Virus record (IMG/VR): IMGVR_UViG_3300032093_000643
Coordinates: 1-28,615 of that record
Origin: a virus
Lineage: Duplodnaviria > Caudoviricetes
Length of the DNA: 28,615 bases
Strand: one strand, 5' to 3'
Shown here: piece by piece, positions 1,620 to 27,878 of the stretch
Layout of the letters: each line of letters opens with the position of its first letter
How positions within the stretch are numbered: the first letter of the stretch is position 1
The notes under the pieces: model-generated
Seen by the model: only the letters and a program-made list of their open reading frames with translations
What the model was told of the DNA's origin: nothing
The model's database searches: none
Position numbers and translations under genes: made by a program

Positions 1620-2696
1620 ATGGAATTTAAAGCAGTAAGAGTATTAGACTCAACAGAACCCAAGAGTGTACAAGAGGTCGAAAAGGAACTTCTTGAGAAG
1701 CACGAGCAGTCATTATCGCAAGAAGTGCCGCAGGAAAACTTCTCTATGCCACAGCAGGAGGTTGAGTTAAGAGAAGAAGACGTTCTTTCATATATAGGTA
1801 AAAGATACAATAAGCAGATTAGCTCATTCGATGAATTGATGGCTGAGCGTAACAGCTCAGAGGAGATGCCAGAGGATGTCGCTGCTTATATGAAATATAG
1901 AAAAGACACAGGAAGAGGATTTGAAGACTTTCTCAAGTTGAAGAAAGATTTCGATTCTGTTCCGGAAGAACAGCTGCTCAAGGAGTACTTGTTATCTACA
2001 CAAGAGGGTCTTGACGAAGATGACGTTGAGATGATGTTGGATGAGTACAGGTATGACGAGGACCTTGATGACGAGTCTTATATTAAGAAGACAAAGATAT
2101 CAAGAAAGAAAGCTGTTAATGAGGCAAAGAAGTTTTTCAACTCTCAGAAGGAGATGTATAAAATGCCCCTTGAGTCAAGTACGGCAGGTATGTCTCAGGA
2201 AGAAAAAGAGGAGTTCAATGCTTATCGTCAATATATGCAACAGGCTAAGACGATCGAGGAGGAAAATAATCGTAAGCGTCAATGGTTTGAACAAAAAACC
2301 AATGAGGTATTTGATGGTAATTTCAAAGGTTTTGAATTTAGCGTCAATAACAAAAAGCTTAATTTTAATCCTGGGGATGCTAATGAGCTTAAAAAGTTAC
2401 ACTCAAATCCATCAAGCTTTATCGGTAAGTTTATCGATGAGAGTGGTTTGATTAAGGATGCAGGTGGATACCATAAGGCTTTGGCTGTTGCAATGAACCC
2501 TGAGAGGTTTGCCAAGTTCTTCTATGAGCAAGGTATGACTGATGCAGTAGATGACTTTATGCGTAAGACTAAAAATGTAAATATGTCTGAGCGTAGGGCA
2601 AATGAGACAACGAAGGGGAATGATGGGTTTCAGGTTAAAGCGGTTAATCCTGACCATGGAAAAAGCTTAAAAATCCGCAGCATAAAAAAATTGTAG
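1620..2696 (+). CDS. Putative capsid scaffolding/assembly protein
   Basis: 358 aa, very acidic and helical, with a basic C-terminal tip (KSLKIRSIKKL). Located between portal and major capsid genes. Confidence 0.65.
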   Translation: MEFKAVRVLDSTEPKSVQEVEKELLEKHEQSLSQEVPQENFSMPQQEVELREEDVLSYIGKRYNKQISSFDELMAERNSSEEMPEDVAAYMKYRKDTGRGFEDFLKLKKDFDSVPEEQLLKEYLLSTQEGLDEDDVEMMLDEYRYDEDLDDESYIKKTKISRKKAVNEAKKFFNSQKEMYKMPLESSTAGMSQEEKEEFNAYRQYMQQAKTIEEENNRKRQWFEQKTNEVFDGNFKGFEFSVNNKKLNFNPGDANELKKLHSNPSSFIGKFIDESGLIKDAGGYHKALAVAMNPERFAKFFYEQGMTDAVDDFMRKTKNVNMSERRANETTKGNDGFQVKAVNPDHGKSLKIRSIKKL

Positions 2697-4252: not shown

Positions 4253-5005
4253 ATGTCTGAGTTAAAGAAAATGGTACCTACTGATAAGGTATATAGATTA
4301 AAAGGCGATTCATCCCCATTGTCATACACGTTAGCATCAAGAAATCATCCAAGGTTCCCTTTGATGTGGTATGATGAGAAGAACAATGTAAACAGAGCGC
4401 TAAGATATGCATCAAACCAAAAGTCACCATTTGAGGATGAGCAAGATGGGAACGCAATTTTAGAGCCTATTATTTTTCAAGATGGGATGTTAGCTGTTCC
4501 TAAATCAAATCCTGTTCTTCAGGCATTTATGCATTACCATCCAATGAATAACAGAATATTCGAAGAGGTAGATAAAGAAAAAGAGGCATTTGAAGAAGTT
4601 GAAGACTTAAATATTGAGGTAGATGCATTGATTGCCGCTAGAAATTTAAGCATAGAGAAGCTTGAGATTATGACAAGGGTACTATTCGGTAAAGACCCAT
4701 CGGTTATCTCAACAGCAGAACTAAAAAGAGATATGCTTATTTTTGCCAAGACTAATCCTAGAGATTTTATGCAAACCATAAATGACCCTGAGTTAAACTA
4801 CCAAGGCAAGATTATGCTATTCTTTGAAAAGAGACTATTAGCTCTCCGTAATAATGACAGAGAGATTTGGTTTAGTACACCATCCAACAAAAAGAAAATG
4901 TGTTCAATACCATTCGGTGCTGACCCATATGATTTTGCTGGACAGTTCTTACAAAGTGACGAAGGTCTTGATGCGCTAAAGATGTTAGAGACATACTTAT
5001 CGTAG
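4253..5005 (+). CDS. Conserved head-module protein downstream of the capsid gene (function unknown)
   Basis: Start reassigned from GTG 4205, which is inside the terminator, to ATG 4253 with an A-rich leader, giving 250 aa. The RALRYASNQKSPFEDEQ motif and its position are typical of this phage group. Confidence 0.7.
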   Translation: MSELKKMVPTDKVYRLKGDSSPLSYTLASRNHPRFPLMWYDEKNNVNRALRYASNQKSPFEDEQDGNAILEPIIFQDGMLAVPKSNPVLQAFMHYHPMNNRIFEEVDKEKEAFEEVEDLNIEVDALIAARNLSIEKLEIMTRVLFGKDPSVISTAELKRDMLIFAKTNPRDFMQTINDPELNYQGKIMLFFEKRLLALRNNDREIWFSTPSNKKKMCSIPFGADPYDFAGQFLQSDEGLDALKMLETYLS

Positions 5006-5036
5006 TCAAGTGAAAATATTTTAGAGTTATAGTAAG

Positions 5037-5067
5037 AGAGGGTGTAAATATATGCCCTCTTTTTTTT
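5037..5067 (+). terminator. Rho-independent terminator
   Basis: AGAGGGTGTA-AATA-TATGCCCTCT forms a 10-bp stem (2 G-U pairs), followed by 7 T. Confidence 0.8.
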
Positions 5068-7031: not shown

Positions 7032-10000
7032 ATGGCGAATTTTACAAGGAACTTTATTGCCGGTAGAATGAATAAGACATTCGATGAGCGAGTAGTCCCT
7101 GATGGGGAGTACATTGACGCTATGAATGTTAGGATGGGATCGACAGAGAAGTCGGAGGCAGGAGTCATTGAGAATACGAATGGTAACTTGCCATTGACTG
7201 CATTGACCTATATTGACGGTACGCCATTGAGTACTGATGCAAGATGTATAGGGGCTATAAATGACAGCGCAAGAGAGACTTTGTATTGGTTTGTTCATGA
7301 CCCAAATTCTAAAACTTCTCCAACTGGAAAGCTTGACCTTGTTGTTTCTTTTAATATGGTATCTCAGGTATTGACATACCATATTGTTAGCGTGAATGAT
7401 GGAGGTGTAGTAAATACTACATTGAATTTCAATCCTGACTATTTGATTACAGGGGTTGACATTGTTGAGGATTTATTATTTTGGACTGATGACTATAATC
7501 AGCCTAGATTTATCAATATCAATAGGGGCTACGCTAATCCTGACGCTTTAGGCGTTGACTATAACGGTCAGCCTGACCTGCTTGCAGAGACGATCCTTGT
7601 TATTAAGAAGCCACCTACCGAAGCCCCAACGATAGAACTTATTGAGGTAGATGGTCAAGAGAATTATCTAGAGGATAGGTTTTTATGCTTTGCTTATAGG
7701 TATAAATATGTCGATGGAGAATATACAGCTACGTCACAATGGTCTGAGATTGCATTTGAGCCAAGTTCTTTTCAGTTTAGTACAAATAGTTTCCTTAATC
7801 AGGGAATGGAGAATAAGTACAATGCTGTTAATGTAAGCTTTAATACAGGTGGCCCATTAGTGGTTGGTATTGATTTATTATATAAGGATGCAACAGGAAA
7901 TATAATAAAAGTAATCGAACGATTTGACAAGCAGAATGCTGGATGGACAGATAATACCATTCAAACATATCTATTCGTAAATAACAAAATATTTACTATT
8001 CTTCCAGAGTCTGAGTTGTTGAGGCTTTATGATAATGTCCCAAGACTTGCTAAGGCTCAAACAATTATGGGCAATAGGTTGATGTATGGAAATTACGTTG
8101 ATGGATACGACATAGTTGATAGCAATGGTCAGGATGTAAGATTTGATTACACTACTGAGTTAGTATCTCAGTTTATTGGAACCAATGATATACCATCTAG
8201 TACTAGCGATAGCTCTTTACCTCTTTCAAACACTGCTTTTAATCCTTGTTCTCCCCCTTGTACTAGACCCAATACTCAACTAGACATAGACCTTACAGGG
8301 ATACCACTATTACAAGGTAGGATATTAGCTTTTGACATAACCTTTAACACTTTTTCTACTTTAGGTTATGACGTAAGTTGCAGTTTTACTTTTACTCTTC
8401 CGGTAAATTATAGCTCACCTTATCAATTAGCAACAAGTATAGAGTTTCAGCAAGCAATAGGGACAGCAGCAAATATAAAGCCTATATATAATCCAATTCC
8501 TGGAGGTGACGATTCTTGTGATGGATTAACATTTACTGATATATATAATTGTGCTTGGCCTCAGTTCTTGTCACTGTTTGCATATAATGGCATTAAATAC
8601 GAGAGTGGAATCACAGCAAATGGACAGCCGATAGCAATAACAGCCTCTCCTAGTAGCAATATTATTTCTTTACAGTTTTTGGCTATCCTATATTATGACT
8701 ACACTCAAACACCTCCGTATGATATAGTAGGTTTATTTGGCAATATTAAAAATGCTAGCGTTCAATTGCAGGATTTATCAAGCCAAAAAAGCTTGCATAG
8801 TAATAGAGATTATGAGATTGGGATTGTTTATATGGATGAGTTTGGCAGATCAACTTTAACAAATGTAAGTTCATTAAATACTGTTCATATTCCATGTAGT
8901 TACTCATCTCTTGTAAACTCAATCACAGTAACAATCCCAACGACACAAGTTGCTCCTTATTGGGCTAAAAGATATAAGTTTGTATGTAAGGCAAATCAAG
9001 CAGGATACGAGACTATTTACTCAAGTATATTTTTTACCAATAGCTCTACTCAAGAGACATACTTCTTACTTCAAGGAGAAAACCCAAGAAAAGTAGAGGA
9101 GGGAGATAGGTTAACTGTAAAGGCAGATAGTGAAGGTCCGATGCAAACTTGTGTTTTTGCAACCGTATTAGAGAAGGAGGCAAAGCAATCTGGGTTTGAC
9201 CCTTTGATTACACCAACACCCCCTGCTGGTGTCTATATGAAAATAAAGGCTAATGGCTTCTCTGTGAATCCATTGTCATACTCTACAATAGAATTCGGTA
9301 CACTTACTGCGGTTAGTTCTACTTCTGGAACGTCACCTATATTGGCATACCCAATGAGCTTAGAAGACCCATCAAACCCAGGATTTTATATACCCTATTC
9401 AGTTGATGCAGGAACTGTTATTGTATTTGATATAAGATTCGAGAGAACAGGCTTTGGGGGTAATGCTTGCGAAAAGAGGATATATACATTAAAAAAGACT
9501 TATGTGTCTTCCTCTAATTATGCAAATATGCAGGATTGGTTTATAAATGACAATATTGCAAGTACTTTAAATGATGGGGATCAAGAAGTTGGAGGAGGTG
9601 CTTGCCCTGTAAATAATGTTTTTATACCTACTAATGGGACAATCACATCAGGTCAGTTATGTGATAATTATTGGCGATTTTATCTGCATCCAATAACTGG
9701 GGCTTTAGAATTATATATGTCAGGGACTTGGGCTTGTGGCTCAACTCAAAAAAGAAAATCAAGAGTAATTGCAAATATTATTGTCTTTAGAACAGCGGAG
9801 TCAATTATATTTGAAACTCAACCAATTGACACGCTACCTGATGTATTTTTCGAAAATGAATTATCATTTCCGATTGATGCAAATGGCAATCACTTGTCAA
9901 ATGGTGCCCCTGGAGACCAATCTCAAGATATAAGCTTAGGTGTCCCTGCAATAATCCAAACAGGGTTCTTTAACTGCTTTGCATTTGGTAATGGTGCCGA

Positions 10001-11708
10001 GAGCTACAAGATAAGAGACTCAATCATCGGCAGAGATTTTAATCTTGGCAACAGGGTAACAACAGTAGCTGCTCAAGACTATAAAGAGTCAAGACGTTTT
10101 GCTGACATCACTTATAGTGGTGTATATAACCCTGAGACCAATGTCAATAAGCTTAATGAGTTCAACGGAGCATTGCTTAACTACAAGAACCTTGAGCTGT
10201 CATTTGGAGCAGTATACATCCTTGATGGCAGAGAGACTGACGTGTTAGTCCTGCAAGAGGACAAGGTGTCATACGTCCTTGCAGGAAAGAACCTATTATC
10301 TGATGCTGCTGCCGGTGGTGCCATAACCTCAGTCCCTGAGGTATTGGGTACACAGATAGCGAGAGTCGAGAACTACGGCATAAGTTTCAATCCTGAGAGC
10401 TACTCTAAATGGGGCTATGACAAGTTCTTTACTGATGCCAAAAGAGGGGCAGTAATACAGCTTAAAGGCAACTCATACTCTAATGAGCAGCTTGCAGTTA
10501 TCTCTGATATGAACATGAGGACATGGTTTAGAGATGAGTTCATTGCAAGGTTCAATAACCAAAAGCTCGGAGCGTTTGACCCATATATGAACGAGTATGT
10601 GCTGACGCTGAACGACAGAGAGATACCGATGGAGGAGGAGTGTATTAAGTGTGGTGTCACTAGAACCTTTACATTTGCTCAGGGTAAGATAGCATCTGAG
10701 GTGAATTTCTGTGTAGACTTTGCAACTAAAGTTGGGCCTGTAAATGTGGATTGGTTAGTTCAAAGTATTGATGTGGACGCTGACTTTGTTATTGACGTAG
10801 AGTACGATGGTACTACTTATACGTCAGGGCTACAAACCTCATCAGGGTACTTTGACTTCTTTAAGAATACCCAATTACCATCTACAGGAACGGTTACTAT
10901 TACAGCCACAGGCAATGTTGTGATTAGCGTAACTATTGGATGCCCAGTGCCTATACCAATGACACTTGTAGAGGTTGTACTCACAGATGACTGCGATGCA
11001 GGCCTGACGACACTAAAACAATTTAATTATGTCAATGGGACATATACTTCGCCCACGCAATCTAATTTCTTTATCTTTGCGTCAGGGACGAATAACCCAT
11101 TGGTGTCATACTATCTTGCAACGAATGGATTTGAGGGTCAGGGTAGCCTACCACCAGAGGGAGCGTTAATGACGTTACAGATAAATGAGACACCGCCATA
11201 TGTGTCATATAACTTTGACCCAGGACAGAATAAGTTCAGATACGCAAGGACAACAGTGCTATATGGCAATAATGATATTGATATGCAGGCAATGCTGGCA
11301 ATATCAAATATAGCTACGCCTATACTTAATCCATCAACTGGTATCTATAATGCTACCTTTACTGTGCCACCAACATTAGACGGTCAGTACTTGTACGTTA
11401 TATGGGATTTAAGGTCATCAATTGGCGTAGAGCTTTGTTATGACCCTGAGTCGTTAGAGGCTGTGTGCTGCGAATGCTTACCATGTACAGAACTATGTAA
11501 CTCATATTTGTTTCAAAATCCGTCAACAGCAACTGAGGATGCAATTATAGAGTTTCCTCTTGGCTTATGCGGATCGCCTGAGACACACACAGAGACTCTA
11601 GCTCCTGGTGCATCAGTAAGCCTATGCATACCAAATGACAAAGACAATTATATCATTTTACAAGGCAGTCCAATTATTTATATGGAGAGTTGTTTTTGTG
11701 GAACTTAA
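7032..11708 (+). CDS. Tail stabilisation/muzzle protein (P22 gp10-like), N-terminal and main part, with a Cys-rich C-terminal extension
   Basis: 1558 aa. Motifs GRMNKTFDERVVPDGEYIDAMNVR, LFWTDDYNQPR, FAYRYKY, LYDNVPRLAKAQ, GNRLMYGNY, SLHSNRDYEIGIVYMDEFGR, FGNGAESYKIRD, YGISFNPES and GAFDPYMNEY are characteristic of this family. Confidence 0.78.
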   Translation: MANFTRNFIAGRMNKTFDERVVPDGEYIDAMNVRMGSTEKSEAGVIENTNGNLPLTALTYIDGTPLSTDARCIGAINDSARETLYWFVHDPNSKTSPTGKLDLVVSFNMVSQVLTYHIVSVNDGGVVNTTLNFNPDYLITGVDIVEDLLFWTDDYNQPRFININRGYANPDALGVDYNGQPDLLAETILVIKKPPTEAPTIELIEVDGQENYLEDRFLCFAYRYKYVDGEYTATSQWSEIAFEPSSFQFSTNSFLNQGMENKYNAVNVSFNTGGPLVVGIDLLYKDATGNIIKVIERFDKQNAGWTDNTIQTYLFVNNKIFTILPESELLRLYDNVPRLAKAQTIMGNRLMYGNYVDGYDIVDSNGQDVRFDYTTELVSQFIGTNDIPSSTSDSSLPLSNTAFNPCSPPCTRPNTQLDIDLTGIPLLQGRILAFDITFNTFSTLGYDVSCSFTFTLPVNYSSPYQLATSIEFQQAIGTAANIKPIYNPIPGGDDSCDGLTFTDIYNCAWPQFLSLFAYNGIKYESGITANGQPIAITASPSSNIISLQFLAILYYDYTQTPPYDIVGLFGNIKNASVQLQDLSSQKSLHSNRDYEIGIVYMDEFGRSTLTNVSSLNTVHIPCSYSSLVNSITVTIPTTQVAPYWAKRYKFVCKANQAGYETIYSSIFFTNSSTQETYFLLQGENPRKVEEGDRLTVKADSEGPMQTCVFATVLEKEAKQSGFDPLITPTPPAGVYMKIKANGFSVNPLSYSTIEFGTLTAVSSTSGTSPILAYPMSLEDPSNPGFYIPYSVDAGTVIVFDIRFERTGFGGNACEKRIYTLKKTYVSSSNYANMQDWFINDNIASTLNDGDQEVGGGACPVNNVFIPTNGTITSGQLCDNYWRFYLHPITGALELYMSGTWACGSTQKRKSRVIANIIVFRTAESIIFETQPIDTLPDVFFENELSFPIDANGNHLSNGAPGDQSQDISLGVPAIIQTGFFNCFAFGNGAESYKIRDSIIGRDFNLGNRVTTVAAQDYKESRRFADITYSGVYNPETNVNKLNEFNGALLNYKNLELSFGAVYILDGRETDVLVLQEDKVSYVLAGKNLLSDAAAGGAITSVPEVLGTQIARVENYGISFNPESYSKWGYDKFFTDAKRGAVIQLKGNSYSNEQLAVISDMNMRTWFRDEFIARFNNQKLGAFDPYMNEYVLTLNDREIPMEEECIKCGVTRTFTFAQGKIASEVNFCVDFATKVGPVNVDWLVQSIDVDADFVIDVEYDGTTYTSGLQTSSGYFDFFKNTQLPSTGTVTITATGNVVISVTIGCPVPIPMTLVEVVLTDDCDAGLTTLKQFNYVNGTYTSPTQSNFFIFASGTNNPLVSYYLATNGFEGQGSLPPEGALMTLQINETPPYVSYNFDPGQNKFRYARTTVLYGNNDIDMQAMLAISNIATPILNPSTGIYNATFTVPPTLDGQYLYVIWDLRSSIGVELCYDPESLEAVCCECLPCTELCNSYLFQNPSTATEDAIIEFPLGLCGSPETHTETLAPGASVSLCIPNDKDNYIILQGSPIIYMESCFCGT

Positions 11709-18377: not shown

Positions 18378-21300
18378 ATGAATGAAGAATATATAAAAAG
18401 CCTTTACGATTGGATCGTATCTCAAGATAATGAATTTAGCAATGTATCATTGCAAGATTTTTCTGAAGGATTAAAAAATGAAACATATGTAAAAGAAATA
18501 CACAATTATCTTTTGCAAAAAGATAATTCATTTGCGTCATTAGATGAGTTTTCGGCTGGGCTAAAATCCACTCAACAGCCAATGGCTCAAGAGCAGCAGC
18601 CTGTTAAAAAAAAAGAAGCTTTTGGGGATTATGGCGTACTTGGCTACCAGCAAACAGAGGGTCCAATACAGCGCTCGATAAAAGAAGGAAAGCCTACGGA
18701 ATCATTATCGGAAGAGTTTTCATCGGGGTCACAATTAGCTGATGCCTATGGCCTACCTGTTAAAGGTCTTGAGAAAATAACTCAAACACAGCAAGATGTA
18801 GCTCAAATAGAAAAACCTAAAAGCCCTTTTGACTTACAGTTAAAACAAGAGGTATATGCAAAAAAGCAAGAGGAGATACAAAAAGAACAGCTAAGAGTTC
18901 TAAGAGAAACGAATGCCCTTAAACAAAAAGAGCAAGAGATACAAAAGGAAATACAACTCGAAGCTAATCTTAGAAGCGAGACCCCTGACTTTATAAACAA
19001 GCTCAGTACAGTAAACACCAGTATATTTGACGACTACTCTAATATAGATGCAATTAAAAAAGAGTTCGCTCCATATGGTATAGTAGTAGAAAAAACTGGG
19101 TTCTTTGGCAATAAGCTAACCGCAAGATCACTGAACGGAGAAGTTTCCGTAGAAATAGACCTATCAGTAGACTCAAACACCGAAAAGGCGGCTGAGCTAG
19201 AACGTCTTAGAAGTTTTATAAAGCAAAACAATAGGGTGTCAGAAGAAGAAGACTTCCTAAACAAAGCTCTTCGTGCTAAAAACATGAGACCTTCTGCAAG
19301 AACAAATGATGATGGCACTCAATCAACCGTAAAATTTGTTTCATTTGACAATAAAGTAATTCCAACTCTTTTCCCAAAGGTACCAAATCCTAAGACTAAA
19401 GACGACTGGATGGAATTGCCATTCGAGCAAGCACTTGAAGAAGCAAAGAAAAGAGGTGAAGTATTTACATTTAAAACAGATAAAGAAGCTAAAGATTTTG
19501 CTGCTGGTTCTTGGAAAGAAATATCTAAAGTAGACATAGAGGGTGATAAATTTTTCAAGCAAAGAGGCAGGGACTATATGTCCGATGCAAAAAAGCTTGA
19601 CAGATATAAAGAGCTAGAGTCAATAATAAACTTCGTAGAAGGGTATAATCTTAAAAGCAGAACATCTGATGGGTATAAAGGATCAGCACTTACAGAACTA
19701 GCAAAAGAGCAATATCCAAATCTATTTATAGGTGGCAATAAATTGAGAGGAGACATCAATGAAGTCGTAGCTCAATATAAAAAAGAAAGAGATTTATTGA
19801 AGTCTCAAGTAAAAGACATGACGTTTATGAAACAAGATGGCACTCTTGAAAAAACAGTCATGGACTTTGATGCTCATTTAGCAAATCTACAAAGAGAAGC
19901 CTCTATGGAATCGGCAAAGTTATTCAGAGAGGCTAAGACCGATATAGACATTATAGATGCTGAGTCTTTGAAAAGGTTTAATATGCCTATCGAGACTTTG
20001 ATGAAAGAAAATGTAAATAATATCCAAGACAAACAAGCATATAATAATTTAGTCCAGAAATATAGTGAGGCTCAGAAAATAGCTAAGACAGCAGCTATGA
20101 AATACGATGAGTCTCAAACTTATTTCGATGCTAAAACCAATAAAGAGATAACAAGTGAACTCTCAGACAATTGGAATGCCATCTCATCATCTTTAAGTGA
20201 TGGGTTGAAGAATGGATTTATAGGAGACCAATTACTAGCGCTATCAATGCCTGGTTATGTGTCTTGGTCTGGAGTTAAAGACAAGGAGAGTGCAGCAAAA
20301 TATATATCAAGTACACTTGCTGGTATGAGTGGCACTCAAAGCCGTACAATGACAAGACTTGCTGCTGCAACGTCAGCTATGGATTGGATTGACGTGATAC
20401 TTGACGATCCGTTTGAAGCAACAACAATTGCTGTAGGTCAGTCATTATCACAGATGTTGCCTTATGGAATTAAGATAGTTCCAGCTATTACAGCCCCATC
20501 TACTGGTATAGGTTCAGTAACAGGTCTTCTAGGCGGTCCTTTTGCCCCATTTACTGTAACGACAGGTGCAACAGCAGGATTTTTTACAGGTCTAAAAATG
20601 GGACAAGCAGTGACAGGTTTTGCCACTGAGTACACAAATGCCGTAATGGAGGCCGTAGAAAATAATGGATACAAAGCTCTTGACCCTGAATCGTTGGAAC
20701 AGGCGCTAAATGACCAAAGAGTTTGGGATGAAGCAAGGGCTGTTGGTCTAGCTAGAGGTGTTCCTATTGCTGTTGTAGATTATGTAACAGCAGGCCTTGC
20801 AGGGAAAATGATAAAGCCGGCAAGTAAATTAGCTACAACTAGCTCAAAATTATCAAGAGCAGCAGCTGAGAACGTAATAATAGACCCATTAGCTGAAAGT
20901 GGTGGTGAGCTTGTAGCGCAGGGTAGTGAGATTGTCTTTGGCACAGGAAGGAAGGAGATTGACTTTAATGAGGTAGCACTTGAAGGATTAGGCAGTATAG
21001 GTACAAACGTGCCGAACTATGTACTTAACACATATAGTGCTATAAAGAAAAATACGGATATTGATCTTGCATATAGTCTAACTGACTATAAAAATATAGC
21101 ATCAGAGAATGTATCTGATGAGCGCATATCAAGTTGGGCCAATAATATGCAACGCCTTGGGAAGATTGACGAGTCAGTTAATCAGAAGATACAAGAGAAT
21201 GTTGGCCTTAGAAGAGATGCTAAGGGCTTGATGTCTGTTGGCGGTAAAAAGGTAAATGACAATGTCACTGCTAGGACAATGGAGCTACTTGCTGCCAAAA

Positions 21301-24300
21301 AAGAGCTTACATCGTCTAAAGAGAGACAAGAGATTTATGGCGAAGATATAAGAGCTATCAATGAGGAGCTTTCTGCTATGGGCAAAAGCAAGGAGCTATT
21401 GCCAGCAGAGAATCAAGTTGACCTAAGTAGTATCTCAGGTATTGAGACTAAGGAGGTAGGAGAGTATATGATAAATGGTAGAAGATATACTAAGCAACAA
21501 TTTTTAGATAAAATCAATTCATCCACTCCTGAGAGACTTGCAAAGTTAAATATTGGTGTCAAGAATGACGAAGAAGTATCTCAGACATTAAACGATAAAT
21601 TAGATGCCTTTCAAAAGCAAACAACAGGTGAAGTATCTGTACAGCCAGAAGCCGGAATTGGCCAAGAGATGGTCGAAGGAGAACCCGAAACAGGACTTGA
21701 AGCAGCTCCCAAGCAAGGTCTCAGCCCCGAAGAAAGCCAAAGGAAAGAAGAACTCTTAGCAGCATTCGAGAACCCCTCAGAATTAGAAAGCTTTACAGAG
21801 GGTGAACCAAAACCTCTTATTAAAGTTAATGACGCTTATGAGGATAAAGCTGATGCTCAGGCTGAACTTGACGCATTACTCCAAAAAGAGCAGGCTACCC
21901 CTGAGGGCTTAGGCGCTCAGCTTGAGATAGCAGAAAAGGAAGCTGCACCTGTACAGCCAGTAGAGACATTTACTGAGCAGGACAAAGCGAGACAGCAGGA
22001 GCTAACTGATGCACTAGCTAAGGCTGACAAGAGACGCAAGAACATAACTGTTGGTGAGACGGTCATGCCAAAGGCTGACGTGAAGGCTGAGCTTGACGCT
22101 CTTAATCAGAAAGAACTATCATCACAGCAACCTGTAACTGAACCTGTAACTGAGACATTGACACCTGAGCAAGAGGCTGACAAGCTAGAGCAAATGATGC
22201 TAGCTAAGATGGGGGCACCAAAGGTTGAGGCGGCACCGGTAACTGAGACTCCTGTGACTGAGACTGTACCTATAACCGAGGTGGCTCCTGAAGCAACAGA
22301 AGAAGTCAAAGGGAGTCCTTGGGATATTGTAAATGCAGAAGAAAAAGCGTACAGAGAAAAGCAGCAAAAGGATAAAGACCAAGCTACAAGTGATATTGAA
22401 TTGATAAACAATGGAGATCAAAAAACCATTGACAAGTACTTCAAAAAGAGTGGATATGTAGAGATAACAGGAAATGAAACAAACCCAAACCTAAAAGGTA
22501 GAAAAGGAGTTTACAAACAAACGGGAGCTTCTCTTATTATAAAAGGTAGTAAGCAAAAAGCTGCATTAGATACGGCAACAAATATTTCTAAAAAGAAAAT
22601 ACAAGGATTACCTAGTGCAAGAGTTGAGCAAATCGTAAGAGAATTTGAAAAGAAATCAAAACAACCAAAGACTGAGGCTCCTGTAACTGAGGGTAAAGTA
22701 GAAACAGAAAACGAAAAGACTGCCAAGAGAATTAGAGGTAAGAAAATGAAAGGCACCTTGTCAACTCTTGACTTTGGCATAACTCAGACCGTATACAATG
22801 GGGCATTGGAATTTATGGCAAGGCAGGTTGAGAGTGGAACAAAAATAGGTGAAGCCATTACTGCTACCATAAATTGGATTGATACAAAAGTCGGCAATAT
22901 AAAGTGGGACAAGGAATCATTTAGCAAGTATATGAATACTGCGGCTGAACAGAAAAAAGATATCCCTGAATTAAAAGATGTAAATAGTACAACTAAATTA
23001 TTAAAGAAAAATAATACTATTTTATCAGCTTTAAGAGATGCGATTGCAAATATTAATAGAAGTTATGTTTTAATAAATGGTATAAAATACACAAAGGATG
23101 AAATAAAAGATTTAATTTATGATATAATAGGATCTGAAGTTGACAAAATAGTTGATATAAAAATTACAGGTTCAAGAGTATATGGCACATCTAAAAATAA
23201 TAGTGACTTAGATATAATTGTTGAATACGAGGGAGATATAAGAGAAGACACTTTATTTGATATCGCTAATGGAGAGCGGTTAAAAATAGGGAATGTAAGA
23301 ATAGATATAAATCCAATTAAAGCAGAAAAATCAGGTACTATTTCAGAAAATGCAATTAAAGAAAGAAAATACCTAGATGAAGTAGCAGATGAGAAATATC
23401 TTGCAAGAGCCTACCATTCAGCGAAAGTAGATGGTACTAATCCTAAATTAGTAGAAGCAGTCGAAGGTTTACTACAACCTGCTAAAGAAAAAACGCCATC
23501 TCTATCAGATGCTGTCAGGAGCTTAAAGATAAAAGGACCTGGTGGATTGCAGAGTAATATACTTGGTGTACCTATTGCAATATGGAATGCGGCAGTATTA
23601 ACAACCGCTAATGCTATTGATGCTGGTGTTGCTGTTTCTAAGGCTGTAAAGAAAGGAGTAAAAAAAGTAAAGGACTTAGTAAAGAAAAATAAACTATCTA
23701 GCAAAATAACAGATAAAGAGATAGACGATGTAATATTAAAAAACATATTCGAAGTCATAAGAAAGAAAGCAAAGGATAGCGGTTTCTCCGATACAGGCGT
23801 TAGAATATATCTTAAAAGAAATGGTATTGATGATGCTACAATAGATATGTTATTTGGCGCTCCAGAAGAGGCTAGCACATCTAAGCTAAATGAGACCATA
23901 CTGCCAGGCTACAATGAGATGATGAATAAGGTGGATGCTATGATCGCCAGACAAATAAAGAGAGGCACAGCAGTAGATAAGATAGGTAAGAACTTAGATG
24001 CATTACTTAGGAAATTTGATGCCTATATCAACGCCACTGATGCACAGAAAAAGGCATTAGAGCAAGAGGCAAGGAATAGAATTGGTGCAGCACAAAAACG
24101 TGCGCCATCTACTGGTAGAATACTAGGAGCATTCAAAGATATCACCAACCTTGGCAGAAAGGAGAAAAGCACAATCCTTAACAACATAATGAGACTTTCT
24201 AAGGATGCTGCAAACGACTTGGCAAATGAGATAAAGGCAATGAAGGTAAATGGTAAAATAACCATTAGCCAATTTACAGCCATTCAAAAAAGGCTGAGTA

Positions 24301-27300
24301 AGGTCAACTTCTCTAATGAGAGTTCCATTTCCTCATTTGTTGATTATATGGCAAAAGTATTCAAAGATGCCGAGTATGCAGAAAAAAAAGCAAGAGCAAA
24401 TGACTTGCGGTCAAAGATAAAACAACTATCAAAGAATAAAGGCAAATTTGGAAACCTTACAACCTTCGCTGCTGAGTTTGCTAAGATTGACCCGGCAATG
24501 GTTGAGAATATTGACGAGTATATTGAGATGGCATCAAATGTCAAAGAGGGCGTACAAGGGTCAAAGATAGTAAGAGGGAATGTTATCCCTGCTGATATGG
24601 TTGACGTAGGCAAGACAATGGAGTATGTCAATAAAATGATGGAGGCCCAAGATAAGCTTGTCAGACAAAAGGCAATTGAAAGTCTACAAAATCTTATGGA
24701 CGTAGATGTATCTGACCTTACATATGATAAGATAGTAGAATTGATTGATTTAGTTAGACAAGAAGAAAATACATCGGGAGAACAAAAAGAAGAAATATCA
24801 AAAAAAATAGAAGAGTTCTTTAAGCTAAATAAAGACAGAGAGAAAGCGGTAAGAGATGCTATTAACAAAATGTTTGACTCTTATGCCGCTGTTATAAAGA
24901 ATATGTTTGAGACAGGCATCGACCCATTCTCTGACCCTGACAATCCAACGACAGTTGAGTTTAAGGAGTCAGATAAGAAGATTGTTGAGGAGTTTATGGA
25001 TATGGACTTAAAACAATTAGATGCAAAGGAAGCGCTTAGGGCTGCCGATGCATTGAATAATTTTATTGTCAATAAGTCAATTGCTGGGATGGAAGGTGTA
25101 CTCGGAACATATAGAGGACGAAAAAATGTAAAAGAGGTAGATAATAAGGGCATAAGGTCAAAGGAAATAAAAATGTATTTCAGCCCTGCAATTGGTAGAT
25201 TATTCTTTGAGCAGTTTGCATCTGTACCGTTATTCTTTGAAAGGTTATTTAAAGGATTCAAGGCAGGTCAGTATGTTCGTGAGAAAATGGGCATAAACTC
25301 TTTAATAAACCACAAGGCAGAGGCTTTAGATACTGCGAATAGAATTATAAATAAATACGTCTTGCAATTCTCAAAGATGAAGCCAAATAATAAATCTTTT
25401 CAGGATATGTACAATATCATAGAGAGAGGCATTATAGGTGACTTGGCAAAGACAATTATTGGTGACGATAAGCAAGTAGCAGCAGAGTTTAATAGAAGAA
25501 AGAAACTCATCGAGGAGTCTATTGAGGTATTAAATAAAGGCGGCACTAAAAAAGAAACCGAGGCAGCTAAAATTATAAAAGAGGTTTATGACAAAATAGC
25601 AAGAGACGCAAATGATATCGCAGAAGTAAAAGCAAATGCTGACCAAATCAATGTGGATGCTGTCCAATTTTGGGTTGACGAATGGGCAAAACTATATGAC
25701 CAATTTGCTGACGTTGCATTGAGCGTTTACAATAAGGTACTTGACAAAAATGTCAACTATGTACCGGACAGATTTGGTTTCTTGGAAAGAGCTGACAAAG
25801 TAAAGAAAGATACTGACGGCACCGAGTCGTTATTCTTTTCCAATAGTAATACTGAGAACTTCTACAAAAAAGAAGCTGGCTCCTTAATGAAGTCAACACC
25901 ACCAACAACTTTATTTGATTCGAGTGGTAAAGCAAATATGTACGTTAACCTATCCTTCGACACCAACAATGCAAATGCTTTATTGGAGGCTCTTATTGAC
26001 ATTAAAACTGCGGCAGACATTAGGCAGATACAAGCATTTACAAAATCTCCTGAGTTTGAGAATATTATACCTAGTGGTAAAGATGCAAGCTTAGCAAAGG
26101 ATCGAATAGCAACACTTATAAGAAATATAAGAAATAAGAGGATTGTAACTGACAAAGTATTTAGAGATGTAACAAGAAAACTTGATAGGATAGCTAGTCT
26201 CGGTACAGCACTTGCATTAGCAGGTCCTACTCAAGCTATTTCACAGACAGTACCAGTTGCTGTAAATACACTTACCAATTCAGTAGGAAATTTAAAACTT
26301 AGTAATTTACATAATAAAGCTGTTAATGATTTTATAAACAACTCAGGAATGGCGATAGCTAATAGAGGTGTTGAAGCAACAACTGAACTTGAGACATTGA
26401 ATCAAAAACTTGAGGCGGTAGCAACTGCAAAAACTGAGAAGGTGGCTAGATTTATTGAAAATATAAATAGGAAATATCTAAAGATATACTTATCAAATTT
26501 TGACGTAATGATAGCTAGAGCTTCTTGGATTGCATACTATGAGCAGTATCTTAAAAAACAAAAAGAATATCCAAAGCAAGGCATTGACTATAGTAATCAT
26601 GAGATGAATAAAGAAGCTGCGCAGTATGCACAGGATATGGTTGATAGGCAGCAGAATATATCTGACAAGGATTTAGCAGGAAAGATGTACCAGTCTGATA
26701 ATCCACTAAAGCAGTTTATAACAAAAATTGCTATGCCTCTTTCTACTTTTAGGATGAACCAAACAACTCGTTTCTCAAATGACCTAGCGGTATTATCAAG
26801 TAAGACTGCATCAAATGAGGATAAGAGAATAGCTGCTAGGTCACTCGGTGGTTTTGCTGCTGAGATGGCTACATTTAGATTGGTCAAACTCTATATTGGA
26901 TACTATGTATTTTATAGTATAGCTCAGTTTATACGAGGAGAAGAGGACGATGAAGAGGAGAAGAAAAAGAAATGGGATAATATGGTGAAGGGCGCTGCTA
27001 CATCAGTTACTACTGACGTTTTATCCCCTGCGCCATTTGCAGATATAGTTGCAAGATCTGGATTTAGTGCTGTCTTAGATAAAGTGCAAGAATTTATTGG
27101 CACAGAGGAAGAAGATAGATATAACATCTTTACAGATCAAGGCAAAACTGTATTTGAATCATTTATAAGTGACTTAGGGATACTTGGTATTGCTGCTGAC
27201 AAAGCAACAAAACTTTACGAGAATATAAGACTAGGTATTACTGGTGAATTTACTGATAACTATAACAATAAGAAGACTATAATGGAGAAAGATAGAGAAT

Positions 27301-27878
27301 TGCTATCTAATCCACTGTACATAGCTCTGGGTATTACTACTACCCTTGGTATAAATCCTTTTAGTCCTGAGACTAACAATGTTATGAACACCATAGTCAA
27401 GAGTGCTAAGAAAGATGCGATGACAGGAGAGCAACTCAAAGAGTACCAAGAAACAGGCAGAACTAAATCAGAGGCAAAGAAATACAAAGCCGAGAGAAAA
27501 GCTATGAAAGAAGAGGCTTATGGTGGCTATGAGACACTAGAAGAGTTTGAGAAAAATGACCCTGAGAAATTTGACGAATACTCTGCTCGTGGTGGTAAGT
27601 TATATAAGTACAGAGAGAGTGAGAGATTGGAAGAAGAGGAGAAGAATAAGGATAAGCCATTCAGAGGATTGAGCGAAAAGAAATTTAAAGAGCTATATCC
27701 TAGAGAGTGGAGGGAGAATTATGGCCCAGGCACTGAATACTTTAGAGAGCAGAATACTCCTGAGAAGAGAAGAGAAAGAGCGATGGAGAAAAGGGAAGAG
27801 GCTAAGCGAGAGATGCTCAGAAAGAGAAGAGAGGTGCAGGAGAAGATAAGAGAAAGACAAGAAAGATACGGAAGGTAA
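18378..27878 (+). CDS. Giant multidomain internal virion (polyvalent-type) protein containing a minimal nucleotidyltransferase domain
   Basis: 3166-aa uninterrupted ORF and last gene of the ejection block. Contains a Gly-rich hydrophobic segment (~20460-20640), acidic repeat linkers, an NTase motif GSRVYG...SDLD...D and a helical C-terminal region with hydrophobic segments. Confidence 0.8.
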   Translation: MNEEYIKSLYDWIVSQDNEFSNVSLQDFSEGLKNETYVKEIHNYLLQKDNSFASLDEFSAGLKSTQQPMAQEQQPVKKKEAFGDYGVLGYQQTEGPIQRSIKEGKPTESLSEEFSSGSQLADAYGLPVKGLEKITQTQQDVAQIEKPKSPFDLQLKQEVYAKKQEEIQKEQLRVLRETNALKQKEQEIQKEIQLEANLRSETPDFINKLSTVNTSIFDDYSNIDAIKKEFAPYGIVVEKTGFFGNKLTARSLNGEVSVEIDLSVDSNTEKAAELERLRSFIKQNNRVSEEEDFLNKALRAKNMRPSARTNDDGTQSTVKFVSFDNKVIPTLFPKVPNPKTKDDWMELPFEQALEEAKKRGEVFTFKTDKEAKDFAAGSWKEISKVDIEGDKFFKQRGRDYMSDAKKLDRYKELESIINFVEGYNLKSRTSDGYKGSALTELAKEQYPNLFIGGNKLRGDINEVVAQYKKERDLLKSQVKDMTFMKQDGTLEKTVMDFDAHLANLQREASMESAKLFREAKTDIDIIDAESLKRFNMPIETLMKENVNNIQDKQAYNNLVQKYSEAQKIAKTAAMKYDESQTYFDAKTNKEITSELSDNWNAISSSLSDGLKNGFIGDQLLALSMPGYVSWSGVKDKESAAKYISSTLAGMSGTQSRTMTRLAAATSAMDWIDVILDDPFEATTIAVGQSLSQMLPYGIKIVPAITAPSTGIGSVTGLLGGPFAPFTVTTGATAGFFTGLKMGQAVTGFATEYTNAVMEAVENNGYKALDPESLEQALNDQRVWDEARAVGLARGVPIAVVDYVTAGLAGKMIKPASKLATTSSKLSRAAAENVIIDPLAESGGELVAQGSEIVFGTGRKEIDFNEVALEGLGSIGTNVPNYVLNTYSAIKKNTDIDLAYSLTDYKNIASENVSDERISSWANNMQRLGKIDESVNQKIQENVGLRRDAKGLMSVGGKKVNDNVTARTMELLAAKKELTSSKERQEIYGEDIRAINEELSAMGKSKELLPAENQVDLSSISGIETKEVGEYMINGRRYTKQQFLDKINSSTPERLAKLNIGVKNDEEVSQTLNDKLDAFQKQTTGEVSVQPEAGIGQEMVEGEPETGLEAAPKQGLSPEESQRKEELLAAFENPSELESFTEGEPKPLIKVNDAYEDKADAQAELDALLQKEQATPEGLGAQLEIAEKEAAPVQPVETFTEQDKARQQELTDALAKADKRRKNITVGETVMPKADVKAELDALNQKELSSQQPVTEPVTETLTPEQEADKLEQMMLAKMGAPKVEAAPVTETPVTETVPITEVAPEATEEVKGSPWDIVNAEEKAYREKQQKDKDQATSDIELINNGDQKTIDKYFKKSGYVEITGNETNPNLKGRKGVYKQTGASLIIKGSKQKAALDTATNISKKKIQGLPSARVEQIVREFEKKSKQPKTEAPVTEGKVETENEKTAKRIRGKKMKGTLSTLDFGITQTVYNGALEFMARQVESGTKIGEAITATINWIDTKVGNIKWDKESFSKYMNTAAEQKKDIPELKDVNSTTKLLKKNNTILSALRDAIANINRSYVLINGIKYTKDEIKDLIYDIIGSEVDKIVDIKITGSRVYGTSKNNSDLDIIVEYEGDIREDTLFDIANGERLKIGNVRIDINPIKAEKSGTISENAIKERKYLDEVADEKYLARAYHSAKVDGTNPKLVEAVEGLLQPAKEKTPSLSDAVRSLKIKGPGGLQSNILGVPIAIWNAAVLTTANAIDAGVAVSKAVKKGVKKVKDLVKKNKLSSKITDKEIDDVILKNIFEVIRKKAKDSGFSDTGVRIYLKRNGIDDATIDMLFGAPEEASTSKLNETILPGYNEMMNKVDAMIARQIKRGTAVDKIGKNLDALLRKFDAYINATDAQKKALEQEARNRIGAAQKRAPSTGRILGAFKDITNLGRKEKSTILNNIMRLSKDAANDLANEIKAMKVNGKITISQFTAIQKRLSKVNFSNESSISSFVDYMAKVFKDAEYAEKKARANDLRSKIKQLSKNKGKFGNLTTFAAEFAKIDPAMVENIDEYIEMASNVKEGVQGSKIVRGNVIPADMVDVGKTMEYVNKMMEAQDKLVRQKAIESLQNLMDVDVSDLTYDKIVELIDLVRQEENTSGEQKEEISKKIEEFFKLNKDREKAVRDAINKMFDSYAAVIKNMFETGIDPFSDPDNPTTVEFKESDKKIVEEFMDMDLKQLDAKEALRAADALNNFIVNKSIAGMEGVLGTYRGRKNVKEVDNKGIRSKEIKMYFSPAIGRLFFEQFASVPLFFERLFKGFKAGQYVREKMGINSLINHKAEALDTANRIINKYVLQFSKMKPNNKSFQDMYNIIERGIIGDLAKTIIGDDKQVAAEFNRRKKLIEESIEVLNKGGTKKETEAAKIIKEVYDKIARDANDIAEVKANADQINVDAVQFWVDEWAKLYDQFADVALSVYNKVLDKNVNYVPDRFGFLERADKVKKDTDGTESLFFSNSNTENFYKKEAGSLMKSTPPTTLFDSSGKANMYVNLSFDTNNANALLEALIDIKTAADIRQIQAFTKSPEFENIIPSGKDASLAKDRIATLIRNIRNKRIVTDKVFRDVTRKLDRIASLGTALALAGPTQAISQTVPVAVNTLTNSVGNLKLSNLHNKAVNDFINNSGMAIANRGVEATTELETLNQKLEAVATAKTEKVARFIENINRKYLKIYLSNFDVMIARASWIAYYEQYLKKQKEYPKQGIDYSNHEMNKEAAQYAQDMVDRQQNISDKDLAGKMYQSDNPLKQFITKIAMPLSTFRMNQTTRFSNDLAVLSSKTASNEDKRIAARSLGGFAAEMATFRLVKLYIGYYVFYSIAQFIRGEEDDEEEKKKKWDNMVKGAATSVTTDVLSPAPFADIVARSGFSAVLDKVQEFIGTEEEDRYNIFTDQGKTVFESFISDLGILGIAADKATKLYENIRLGITGEFTDNYNNKKTIMEKDRELLSNPLYIALGITTTLGINPFSPETNNVMNTIVKSAKKDAMTGEQLKEYQETGRTKSEAKKYKAERKAMKEEAYGGYETLEEFEKNDPEKFDEYSARGGKLYKYRESERLEEEEKNKDKPFRGLSEKKFKELYPREWRENYGPGTEYFREQNTPEKRRERAMEKREEAKREMLRKRREVQEKIRERQERYGR
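18606..18742 (+). other. Candidate slippery site (A9) and 42-codon -1 frame extension
   Basis: GTT AAA AAA AAA GAA at 18603-18617. The -1 frame is open 18614-18742 and reads RSFWGLWRTWLPANRGSNTALDKRRKAYGIIIGRVFIGVTIS*. Confidence 0.35.
21604..21759 (+). CDS. Nested +1-frame small basic protein (MPFKS-type, 51 aa)
   Basis: ATG 21604 to TAG 21759 reads MPFKSKQQVKYLYSQKPELAKRWSKENPKQDLKQLPSKVSAPKKAKGKKNS. It has an A-rich leader (CATTAAACGATAAATTAG-ATG) and resembles small phage proteins of the MPFKSxxQxxYLY..P..AKRW...P....LP.KV type. Confidence 0.7.
   Translation: MPFKSKQQVKYLYSQKPELAKRWSKENPKQDLKQLPSKVSAPKKAKGKKNS
22131..22280 (+). repeat. Coding repeat cluster CC(T/G)GT(A/G)ACTGA (PVTE)
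   Basis: Copies at 22131, 22143, ~22236 and ~22251, a degenerate copy at ~22269, and a further copy at 22680. Confidence 0.75.
23070..23385 (+). other. Pol-beta superfamily minimal nucleotidyltransferase (MNT-like) domain within the giant protein
   Basis: ITGSRVYG (GS at 23169-23174), SDLDIIVEY (D-x-D at 23205-23213) and a third acidic residue in RIDINPI (23304-23306) give the complete hG[GS]x9-13DhD...D signature. Confidence 0.85.

What the first reader, a model, noticed from the sequence alone, without database searches (positions are those of the whole stretch)
21604..21759. Gene within a gene: 51-aa basic MPFKS-type protein in the +1 frame of the giant ORF
Seen: ATG-to-TAG ORF MPFKSKQQVKYLYSQKPELAKRWSKENPKQDLKQLPSKVSAPKKAKGKKNS (14 K, 1 R, 3 acidic) with an A-rich leader like the other genes here. 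It is too short for the ORF track. The overlapping giant-protein frame reads as a disordered acidic linker (DAFQKQTTGEVSVQPEAGIGQEMVEGEPE), as expected if it accommodates an overlapping gene. The peptide matches, from memory, a widespread family of small free-standing phage proteins (MPFKSxxQxx(Y/F)(L/M)...P..A..W...P...LP..V). Inference: a formerly separate gene captured inside the giant gene and still translated, perhaps a DNA-condensing or core protein. Gene callers would routinely miss it.
Basis: partly seen in the sequence, partly recalled or inferred. Interest (0 to 1): 0.8.

Follow-up and report, generated by a model that had tools for sequence, protein, structure and literature searches.

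The report
Swappable small gene inside giant gene
A 51-codon gene for a small, very basic protein lies in a shifted reading frame inside a 3,166-codon phage gene; related phages conserve the small protein rather than the giant one on that stretch, some carry an unrelated small basic gene at the same site, and the protein is likely translated and predicted to bind DNA in the virus particle.

Summary
Confirmed. The +1-frame ORF 21604-21759 inside the 3166-aa gene of a crAss-like Bacteroidota podophage behaves as a real gene. It is nested in 80 of 80 closest relatives and in 48 of 59 informative new giants found by the giant's C-terminus. Nested-frame identity is 83-85% against 53-56% in the host frame, the dN/dS-like ratio is about 0.05, and its leader has the adenines that Flavobacterium uses. 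The family (phrog_1375-like, 3052 clusters) stands alone in many phages, often among virion genes. Unrelated basic genes (DUF6496 and others) replace it with a sharp junction at the ATG; a subtype nests in the scaffold-position gene instead; split and half-fused states exist. A cultured phage (Flavobacterium phage elemoA) carries an unannotated nested copy. Against: no expression data; 3 of 16 giants of one clade have a premature stop; 4 giants have an empty slot; DNA binding is untested. The scan noted this nesting before on other genomes, once with the swap. Verdict: new variant of embedded phage genes.

The parts
21604..21759 (+). Nested gene, 51-aa basic MPFKS-family protein (two predicted helices, residues 6-15 and 17-26, then a Lys-rich tail)
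   Evidence: phrog_1375 E=0.004
21588..21603 (+). A-rich, SD-less translation leader (A at -13, -12, -6); also codes the end of the giant's N-terminal part
   Evidence: determinants from PMC6847099 section 15
18378..27878 (+). Giant host gene, 3166 aa, likely virion ejection/cargo protein with a variable middle
   Evidence: last gene of the virion module; weak top fold match of residues 2250-2850 to the PhiM1 ejectosome, Z 7.7
21603..21761 (+). Acidic, low-aromatic host linker (aa 1076-1128) read through the nested gene in its -1 frame
23142..23375 (+). Pol-beta-type nucleotidyltransferase domain in the giant's variable region
   Evidence: PF18765 28.1 bits over cut-off 26.9 when scanned alone
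24219..27077 (+). Conserved helical C-terminal region of the giant; its part 25125-26927 was the independent query
1620..2696 (+). Scaffold-position gene between portal and major capsid gene; 358 aa with no nested family member here, but the alternative host (about 400 aa) in relatives
   Evidence: 32% identity, E=6e-50, to nested-carrying L223 gene
2..16427 (+). Context: portal (2-1567), capsid-position gene (2717-4186), muzzle-like gene (7032-11708) and further virion genes of a crAss-like podophage
   Evidence: PHROG 6547, 13704, 14478; Pfam crAss_MUZ; capsid-position protein 44% identical to Flavobacterium elemo phages

Best explanation
The stretch is a complete small gene under protein-level selection in its own frame, likely translated from its own ATG on the late mRNA, and its product is predicted to be a basic virion-interior protein that binds and neutralises packaged DNA. 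The giant gene reads through it as a tolerant acidic linker: Lys-rich codons in the +1 frame read as Glu/Gln in the host frame, so the host only needs to stay free of stops. The arrangement most likely arose when an upstream ejection gene lost its stop, read through a free-standing small gene and later fused with the downstream gene. Once stop-free in the -1 frame, such cassettes are likely exchanged by recombination at the shared ATG-CCN start, so unrelated basic families fill the same slot. Shown: ORF, selection, leader composition, free-standing homologues, exchange, split and half-fused states. Inferred: translation (about 0.92), read-through origin (about 0.6), virion DNA-binding role (about 0.55).
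For: Nested in 80 of 80 best relatives; 62 of 80 loci found with the giant's C-terminus, 48 of 59 after removing 14 contigs already seen and 7 truncated ones; 13 of 16 in a second clade. Identity 85% nested against 56% host, 1485 of 1485 pairs; nested-nonsynonymous over nested-synonymous rate 0.05 (21 new representatives) and 0.11 (13 of the Cys subtype); Ser5 kept through AGC/TCG/TCA switches; the variable codon position flips against L003 from host third position (0.136 C-terminal, 0.31 upstream) to nested third position (0.154 against 0.026). Leaders: A at -13/-12/-6/-3 in 83/77/67/77% of 94 nested starts against 38/41/35/38% of 10,704 out-of-frame ATGs, the positions named in PMC6847099. 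Free-standing copies: 16 of 22 scanned loci have a labelled virion gene among the three nearest ORFs on either side, 12 a terminase, portal or capsid gene; many sit in clusters of small basic genes, three beside a family weakly like fusellovirus VP2. Swap: 22-28 of 30 matches per block upstream, 7-16 of 30 after the ATG (L073/L109, L038/L159); the two families did not co-occur in the records searched. Split state L304, half-fused state L256.
Against: No expression or proteomic evidence was obtained. Premature TAG at codon 30 in L321, L330, L334, an internal in-frame deletion in L116, and no recognisable occupant in L100, L101, L103, L155: the gene is dispensable in some lineages. The window's own leader is only at the 91st percentile and 50 of 94 nested leaders fall below the control's 95th percentile. 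No solved structure or named family gives a function. 6 of 22 free-standing loci have no labelled virion neighbour. Split and half-fused states were seen for the DUF6496-like occupant, not for MPFKS itself, and do not give direction. The VP2 likeness concerns a neighbouring family and is under the Pfam cut-off (17-23 of 27 bits). Alignment A2 was seeded with giants that carry the nested gene, so the 'independent' sample leans to their kin.
Confidence: 0.6

Rival explanations
1. Real nested gene, but the protein works elsewhere than on packaged DNA: as an assembly or capsid-targeting factor, or as an injected or late host-directed effector.
For: 31 of the 150 listed representatives carry the module at the N-terminus of proteins of 100 aa or more with low-complexity bodies, as a targeting leader would. 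The core has invariant aromatic and Pro positions and a two-helix fold; the Cys subtype has two invariant Cys.
Against: Non-homologous families replace each other in one slot and share little but small size and positive charge, which points to a generic polyanion partner.
Confidence: 0.3
2. The nested cassette entered the giant and scaffold-position genes by in-frame insertion, or the split forms are derived by fission, rather than by read-through capture.
For: The Cys subtype sits in two different host genes (14 giant, 65 scaffold-position of 80 loci); occupant type is patchy on the giant's tree (19 changes); L306 holds MPFKS plus a remnant of the other family.
Against: All 47 free-standing copies have stops in the -1 frame (mean 3.3), so a first direct insertion would break the host; L256 shows a read-through intermediate. 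Later movement of stop-free cassettes is compatible with the best explanation.
Confidence: 0.35
3. The frame is reached by +1 ribosomal frameshifting, giving the giant's N-terminal part with a basic C-terminal tail, not a separate peptide.
For: P0173 (1075 aa) is a giant N-terminal part (25% identity to host proteins) fused in frame to the peptide.
Against: ATG invariant in 55 of 55; bases before it vary with no shared slippery run; initiation-type leader; free-standing homologues start at the same Met. P0173 may be an assembly frameshift.
Confidence: 0.07
4. A shadow of host-frame or nucleotide-level conservation (RNA structure, DNA site), not a protein.
For: The 5' half is the most shared DNA in the region across metagenome contigs (summed depth 38 to over 1000 in X5).
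Against: Host frame is the less conserved one; third positions of the nested frame vary freely; Ser and Leu codon-family switches; 116 of 127 out-of-frame ORF clusters show the opposite pattern; no notable fold (z -0.3).
Confidence: 0.03

Closest known systems
Embedded spanin genes (lambda Rz1 in the +1 frame of Rz; Kongari et al. 2018, PMC6139136, abstract and section 11 read)
   Same: A complete, separately initiated gene inside another, same strand, +1 frame; separated and overlapped forms exist; the paper proposes stop-codon loss and read-through as one route to embedding.
   Different: Spanins are two partners of one complex and of similar size. That section reports no family with embedded members together with overlapped or separated ones; here one family is free-standing, terminally overlapped (DUF6496-like occupant) and embedded. 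Host is 60 times larger, nearly unconstrained at the overlap, and occupants are exchangeable.
PHROG 1375 (unknown function)
   Same: P0001 matches at E=0.004, residues 3-47; 21 of 30 proteins scanned match it weakly.
   Different: Match is weak; the family has no function; the nested Cys subtype did not match.
Pfam DUF6496 / PHROG 2423
   Same: The alternative occupant of the same slot (29.1 bits over cut-off 24); small, basic, free-standing in most loci (54 of 76 not nested).
   Different: Not detected as a homologue of the window's peptide; the window does not encode it at the slot.
Overprinted viral genes (phiX174 B, E, K; recalled, not checked here)
   Same: Two proteins from one stretch; one frame disordered.
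   Different: In overprinting the nested frame is the young one. Here the nested gene is the old, widespread one and the host linker is the by-product.
Crassvirus cargo proteins (PMC10172136, 12 passages read) and phage polyvalent proteins (PMC5512222, 12 passages read)
   Same: Giant gene after muzzle and smaller cargo-position genes; variable middle with an enzymatic domain.
   Different: No RNA-polymerase DFDxD or HExxH motif in the window's giant; the passages read mention no nested gene.

Membership tests
Embedded (nested) protein-coding gene | Complete ORF wholly inside another, in a different frame | tested here: met
Embedded (nested) protein-coding gene | Purifying selection in its own frame | tested here: met
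   ratio 0.05-0.11; codon-position flip
Embedded (nested) protein-coding gene | Own translation-initiation signal | tested here: met
   family-level enrichment of A at -13/-12/-6/-3; window leader 3 of 4 positions
Embedded (nested) protein-coding gene | Product shown to be made | not testable with these tools
   no RNA holder or proteome available
Two-component spanins (Rz/Rz1) | Nested o-spanin lipoprotein with signal sequence and lipobox Cys | tested here: not met
   P0001 has no Cys and no hydrophobic signal
De novo overprinted gene | Nested protein has no homologues outside the host gene | tested here: not met
   free-standing homologues, 3052 clusters
PHROG 1375 | Significant profile match | tested here: inconclusive
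   E=0.004, 18.6 bits; repeated weak matches of relatives
Pfam DUF3008 | Profile match | tested here: not met
   no member of A3 matched at E<=1; only an Atlas neighbour at 0.83
Virion DNA-condensing/core protein | Small, strongly basic, encoded among virion genes | tested here: met
   net +12
Virion DNA-condensing/core protein | Present in virions and binds DNA | not testable with these tools
   needs MS and binding assay
Phage ejection/cargo protein (host gene) | Fold of a known ejection protein | tested here: inconclusive
   top match PhiM1 ejectosome 8vb2, Z 7.7, rmsd 6.3, 235 aligned, within the range of chance helical matches; Foldseek none
Phage polyvalent protein (host gene) | Unrelated enzymatic domains in one virion-context polypeptide, often a zincin peptidase | tested here: inconclusive
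   Pol-beta NTase present, no HExxH in the window, HExxH in L321/L334; PMC5512222 lists Pol-beta NTase for conjugative-type proteins only

The most novel reading that the evidence does not exclude
Bacteroidota podophages keep an exchangeable gene socket inside the disordered linkers of their giant ejection protein and scaffold protein. Old, free-living genes for small basic virion proteins were swallowed by read-through, and unrelated families now swap in and out at the start codon while the host frame stays open. This is nesting by engulfment, the reverse of overprinting, caught with its split and half-fused intermediates, and it hides a class of histone-like capsid proteins from annotation.
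Probability: 0.5. Interest if true: 0.86.

Novelty: new variant of a known kind. Interest (0 to 1): 0.76.

Why it matters
It gives a natural series (free-standing, terminally overlapped, fully embedded, replaced, decayed) for how embedded genes arise, a route that the spanin survey could only propose. It shows an overlap in which the tiny gene, not the giant, carries the constraint, so codon-based analyses and gene callers misread these genomes. It points to very large, unnamed families of small basic phage proteins as one functional class, and a cultured phage-host pair (elemoA on Flavobacterium sp. BAL314) makes translation and function directly testable.

Tried and rejected
tblastn of P0001 and of the giant's C-terminal region against GenBank phages: no match; only the Cys subtype reached cultured phages. 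Pfam, PDB sequence and PDB Foldseek searches for the peptide: nothing; BFVD gave only uncharacterised proteins, none at E<=0.001; the wide VIA search of the peptide model never ran, so its fold is untested there. DUF3008 kinship: not supported. Internal promoter: 2 sigma-70-like sites against 2.2 expected; Bacteroidota promoters are not covered by that scan. RNA structure at the start: z -0.3. No RNA holder listed: no evidence either way. TAG recoding as the cause of the codon-30 stops: not tested directly, unlikely since TAG ends 55 of 118 nested copies. The count '0 of 118 nested copies with a host stop' is circular and not used. Search with the split C-part alone found only itself. Host assignment from MAGs: 3 of 5 pattern hits in Bacteroidota bins, 2 in CPR-labelled bins, too weak to use. 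No complex prediction was sent, as no specific binding is claimed. Literature: ten searches; none listed a paper on this nesting, and MPFKSK, phrog_1375, phrog_2423, DUF6496, DUF3008, MPLKKG gave 0 papers. Subscription papers and all supplements were not seen; virion proteomics of elemo phages could be there.

Full report
OBSERVATION. window 21604-21759 (+) is an ATG-to-TAG ORF that gives the 51-aa peptide as quoted, net charge +12, in the +1 frame of ORF 18378-27878 (3166 aa), over host residues 1076-1128. The window is the virion module of a crAss-like podophage: portal PHROG 6547, virion proteins PHROG 13704/14543/13977/14478, Pfam crAss muzzle. The capsid-position protein is 44% identical to Flavobacterium elemo phages and 48% to a Maribacter phage. 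The ORF's length is unremarkable: six other +1 ATG ORFs of 30 codons or more lie in the giant.

CONSERVATION OF THE NESTING. The peptide found 367 related stretches in viral contigs; the best 80 were fetched. In 80 of 80 it starts with ATG and lies in the +1 frame of a long open frame, although these giants are mostly unalignable around it and 24-50% identical in the C-terminal region outside the nearest kin. Because that sample was chosen by the peptide, I searched again with an alignment of the giant's C-terminal region (best 80 of 220). 62 of 80 carry the nested gene, 7 without it are cut at the 5' end, 11 are complete and lack it. 14 contigs were already in the first set (one search lists 15; L156 is a slicing artefact), leaving 48 of 59. 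The seed alignment came from carriers, so the sample still leans to their kin. A second C-terminal clade gave 19 loci: 2 split, 1 truncated, 13 intact, 3 with a premature TAG at codon 30. In 10 of 10 records searched that carry a copy there was one match each; 0 of 10 records whose giant lacks it had a copy elsewhere, 5 of them at least 90% complete.

WHICH FRAME IS SELECTED. In 55 non-redundant copies, entropy at nested codon positions 1/2/3 is 0.37/0.18/0.84; position 2 is the host's wobble position. Amino-acid identity is 85% nested and 56% host, higher in 1485 of 1485 pairs (pairs are not independent). 47 of 51 possible nested-synonymous, host-changing alleles are seen, but 11 of 77 nested-changing, host-silent ones. 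Ser5 is kept through AGC (47), TCG (7) and TCA (1). On contigs new to the second search the nested-changing rate is 0.05 of the nested-silent rate (21 representatives), and 0.11 in a Cys-bearing subtype (13). Against L003, divergence at host positions 1/2/3 is 0.03/0.01/0.14 in the C-terminal region, 0.09/0.07/0.31 just upstream and 0.15/0.03/0.03 inside the nested gene. As a control, 116 of 127 clusters of out-of-frame ORFs in the fetched loci show the ordinary pattern; this family scores 3.8 (25 sequences), the DUF6496 occupant 1.9. In metagenome contigs the 5' half of the gene collects many other phages (summed depth 38 to 677-1059 in X5) with loose ends at the ATG; 7 of 8 single-site variants that I classified are silent in the nested frame and change the host (the three-base block 21703-21705 was left out).

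START SIGNAL. Flavobacterium johnsoniae uses A at -3, -6, -12, -13 and no Shine-Dalgarno (PMC6847099, abstract and section 15 read). 94 distinct nested leaders have A there in 77, 67, 77, 83%, 244 ordinary starts in 63, 42, 58, 57%, and 10,704 out-of-frame ATGs in 38, 35, 41, 38%. 44 of 94 exceed the control's 95th percentile; the window's leader is at the 91st. Leaders are related by descent, so the p-value of that call overstates the case. Translation itself is inferred.

FREE-STANDING RELATIVES. A profile finds 3052 clusters at E<=0.001. A scan with distant members gave mostly free-standing genes: 47 distinct copies, all with stops in the -1 frame, mean 3.3. 16 of 22 loci scanned have a labelled virion gene within three ORFs, 12 a terminase, portal or capsid gene; 6 have none. 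Many lie in clusters of small basic genes; one neighbouring family weakly matches fusellovirus VP2, under the cut-off (that VP2 binds DNA in the virion is recalled). 31 of 150 listed representatives carry the module N-terminally on longer proteins. Cultured phages hold free copies, annotated in Streptomyces phage FlowerPower and unannotated in S-CBS2 and P-RSP2. The model shows two short helices and a tail (pLDDT 78) with no PDB match.

A SLOT. Of the 11 complete giants without MPFKS, five carry a DUF6496/PHROG 2423 gene in the +1 frame at the same place, L107 and L143 two other short basic ORFs, and four nothing recognisable. L073 (MPFKS) and L109 (DUF6496) match at 22-28 of 30 bases per block up to the shared start and 7-14 of 30 after it; L038/L159 and L111/L110 behave alike. 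The DUF6496-like family is nested in 22 of 76 loci and shows the same third-position pattern. It was found in 4 of 5 control records and 0 of 4 complete MPFKS carriers. The Cys subtype nests in the giant in 14 and in the scaffold-position gene in 65 of 80 loci; that gene is homologous to window 1620-2696, which lacks the insert. L222, of the same phage group, has the gene free-standing after the portal. L175 is a nesting in a GC-rich giant with an SD-like leader and no hit to these giants.

ORIGIN. L304/L305 are split: a gene like the giant's N-part, a 434-aa gene, the small gene standing free, then a gene like the C-part. L256 has the small gene nested near the end of a 760-aa N-part gene, with the C-part still separate. 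This is the read-through route that Kongari et al. propose for embedded spanins without an example (PMC6139136, abstract and section 11 read). Direction is not shown, and these states were seen for the DUF6496-like occupant. Occupant type is patchy on a FastTree tree of 65 giants (19 changes, shuffled mean 25), as expected from repeated exchange and loss.

HOST GENE. The giant has a Pol-beta nucleotidyltransferase domain, no DFDxD or HExxH motif and a helical C-terminal region whose best fold match is the PhiM1 ejectosome at a non-decisive Z 7.7. Position and size fit crassvirus cargo proteins (PMC10172136, 12 passages) and virion polyvalent proteins (PMC5512222, 12 passages); ejection protein is an inference.

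TESTABLE SYSTEM. Flavobacterium phage elemoA (NC_055852.1) has a 42-codon Cys-subtype copy in the +1 frame of gp21 (3694 aa), unannotated; 68 elemo records match (nesting checked in one). MW202828 has one too.

MECHANISM AND LIMITS. Most likely a separately initiated small basic protein that is packaged and neutralises DNA; exchange among unrelated basic families argues for a generic polyanion partner, while invariant aromatic residues and N-terminal fusions leave room for a targeting or assembly role. Decay in a few lineages shows that it is dispensable. No expression, virion or binding data were available.

NOVELTY. Embedded phage genes are known; an old gene engulfed by a giant, used in two host genes and exchangeable is a new variant. 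Ten paper searches listed no description; subscription papers and supplements were not seen. The scan's own notes report the nesting on other genomes and the swap once; these are unchecked AI notes and were not counted as support. Interest 0.76.

Noticed in passing
L238:16987 region (elemoA gp21, offset 2647); L039:4078, L044:4078, L045:4651: A second 40-aa basic ORF nested in the +1 frame of the same giant, upstream of the MPFKS slot, with a strong leader; shared by the cultured phage and three contigs.
   Followed up: partly
L005:1935, L015:6853, L018:6679 and 14 more; L026:7282 group; L035:6343 group; L034:7024 group: Further +1 ATG ORF clusters in the giants' variable regions with fair leaders and mixed selection ratios (0.85-1.2); possible extra nested genes.
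   Followed up: partly
L107:7602-7736; L143:4566-4658: Two more unrelated short basic ORFs at the slot, each seen once; no Pfam match (L107 also none in PHROG).
   Followed up: partly
L306:4677 and 4974-5063: MPFKS cassette followed by a remnant 3' half of the DUF6496-type gene, like a replacement caught in progress.
   Followed up: no
L206:6256-6354: Partial duplicate of the nested gene's 3' half 255 nt downstream, host frame still open.
   Followed up: no
L321:6138 region, L330:6021 region, L334:5766: The same Gln30 codon is TAG in two lineages, leaving the two helices and dropping the basic tail; L321's giant is also in three ORFs.
   Followed up: partly
P0173: 1075-aa protein: giant N-terminal part fused in frame to the MPFKS peptide; natural fusion or assembly frameshift.
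   Followed up: partly
L175:6001-6183: Independent-looking nesting in a 2483-aa giant of a GC-rich phage, with a GGAGG leader.
   Followed up: partly
L256:5390-5890; L304:3698-4999: Unrelated genes (167 aa, ferritin-like by eye; 433 aa) sit between the two halves of split giants.
   Followed up: no
window 23142-23375: Pol-beta-type nucleotidyltransferase domain in the giant's middle, absent from nearly all relatives at this place.
   Followed up: partly
window 11029-11169: +1 ATG ORF of 46 aa in the muzzle gene with the best leader score of the window's out-of-frame ORFs (5.4); no relatives examined.
   Followed up: no
window 21850-22340 (giant aa about 1160-1320): Pro/Glu/Thr-rich segment with short imperfect repeats; relatives L003 and L013 show a duplicated block here.
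   Followed up: no
L163, L168, L189, L237, L288, L343: Clusters of two to four unrelated small basic genes next to free-standing copies.
   Followed up: partly
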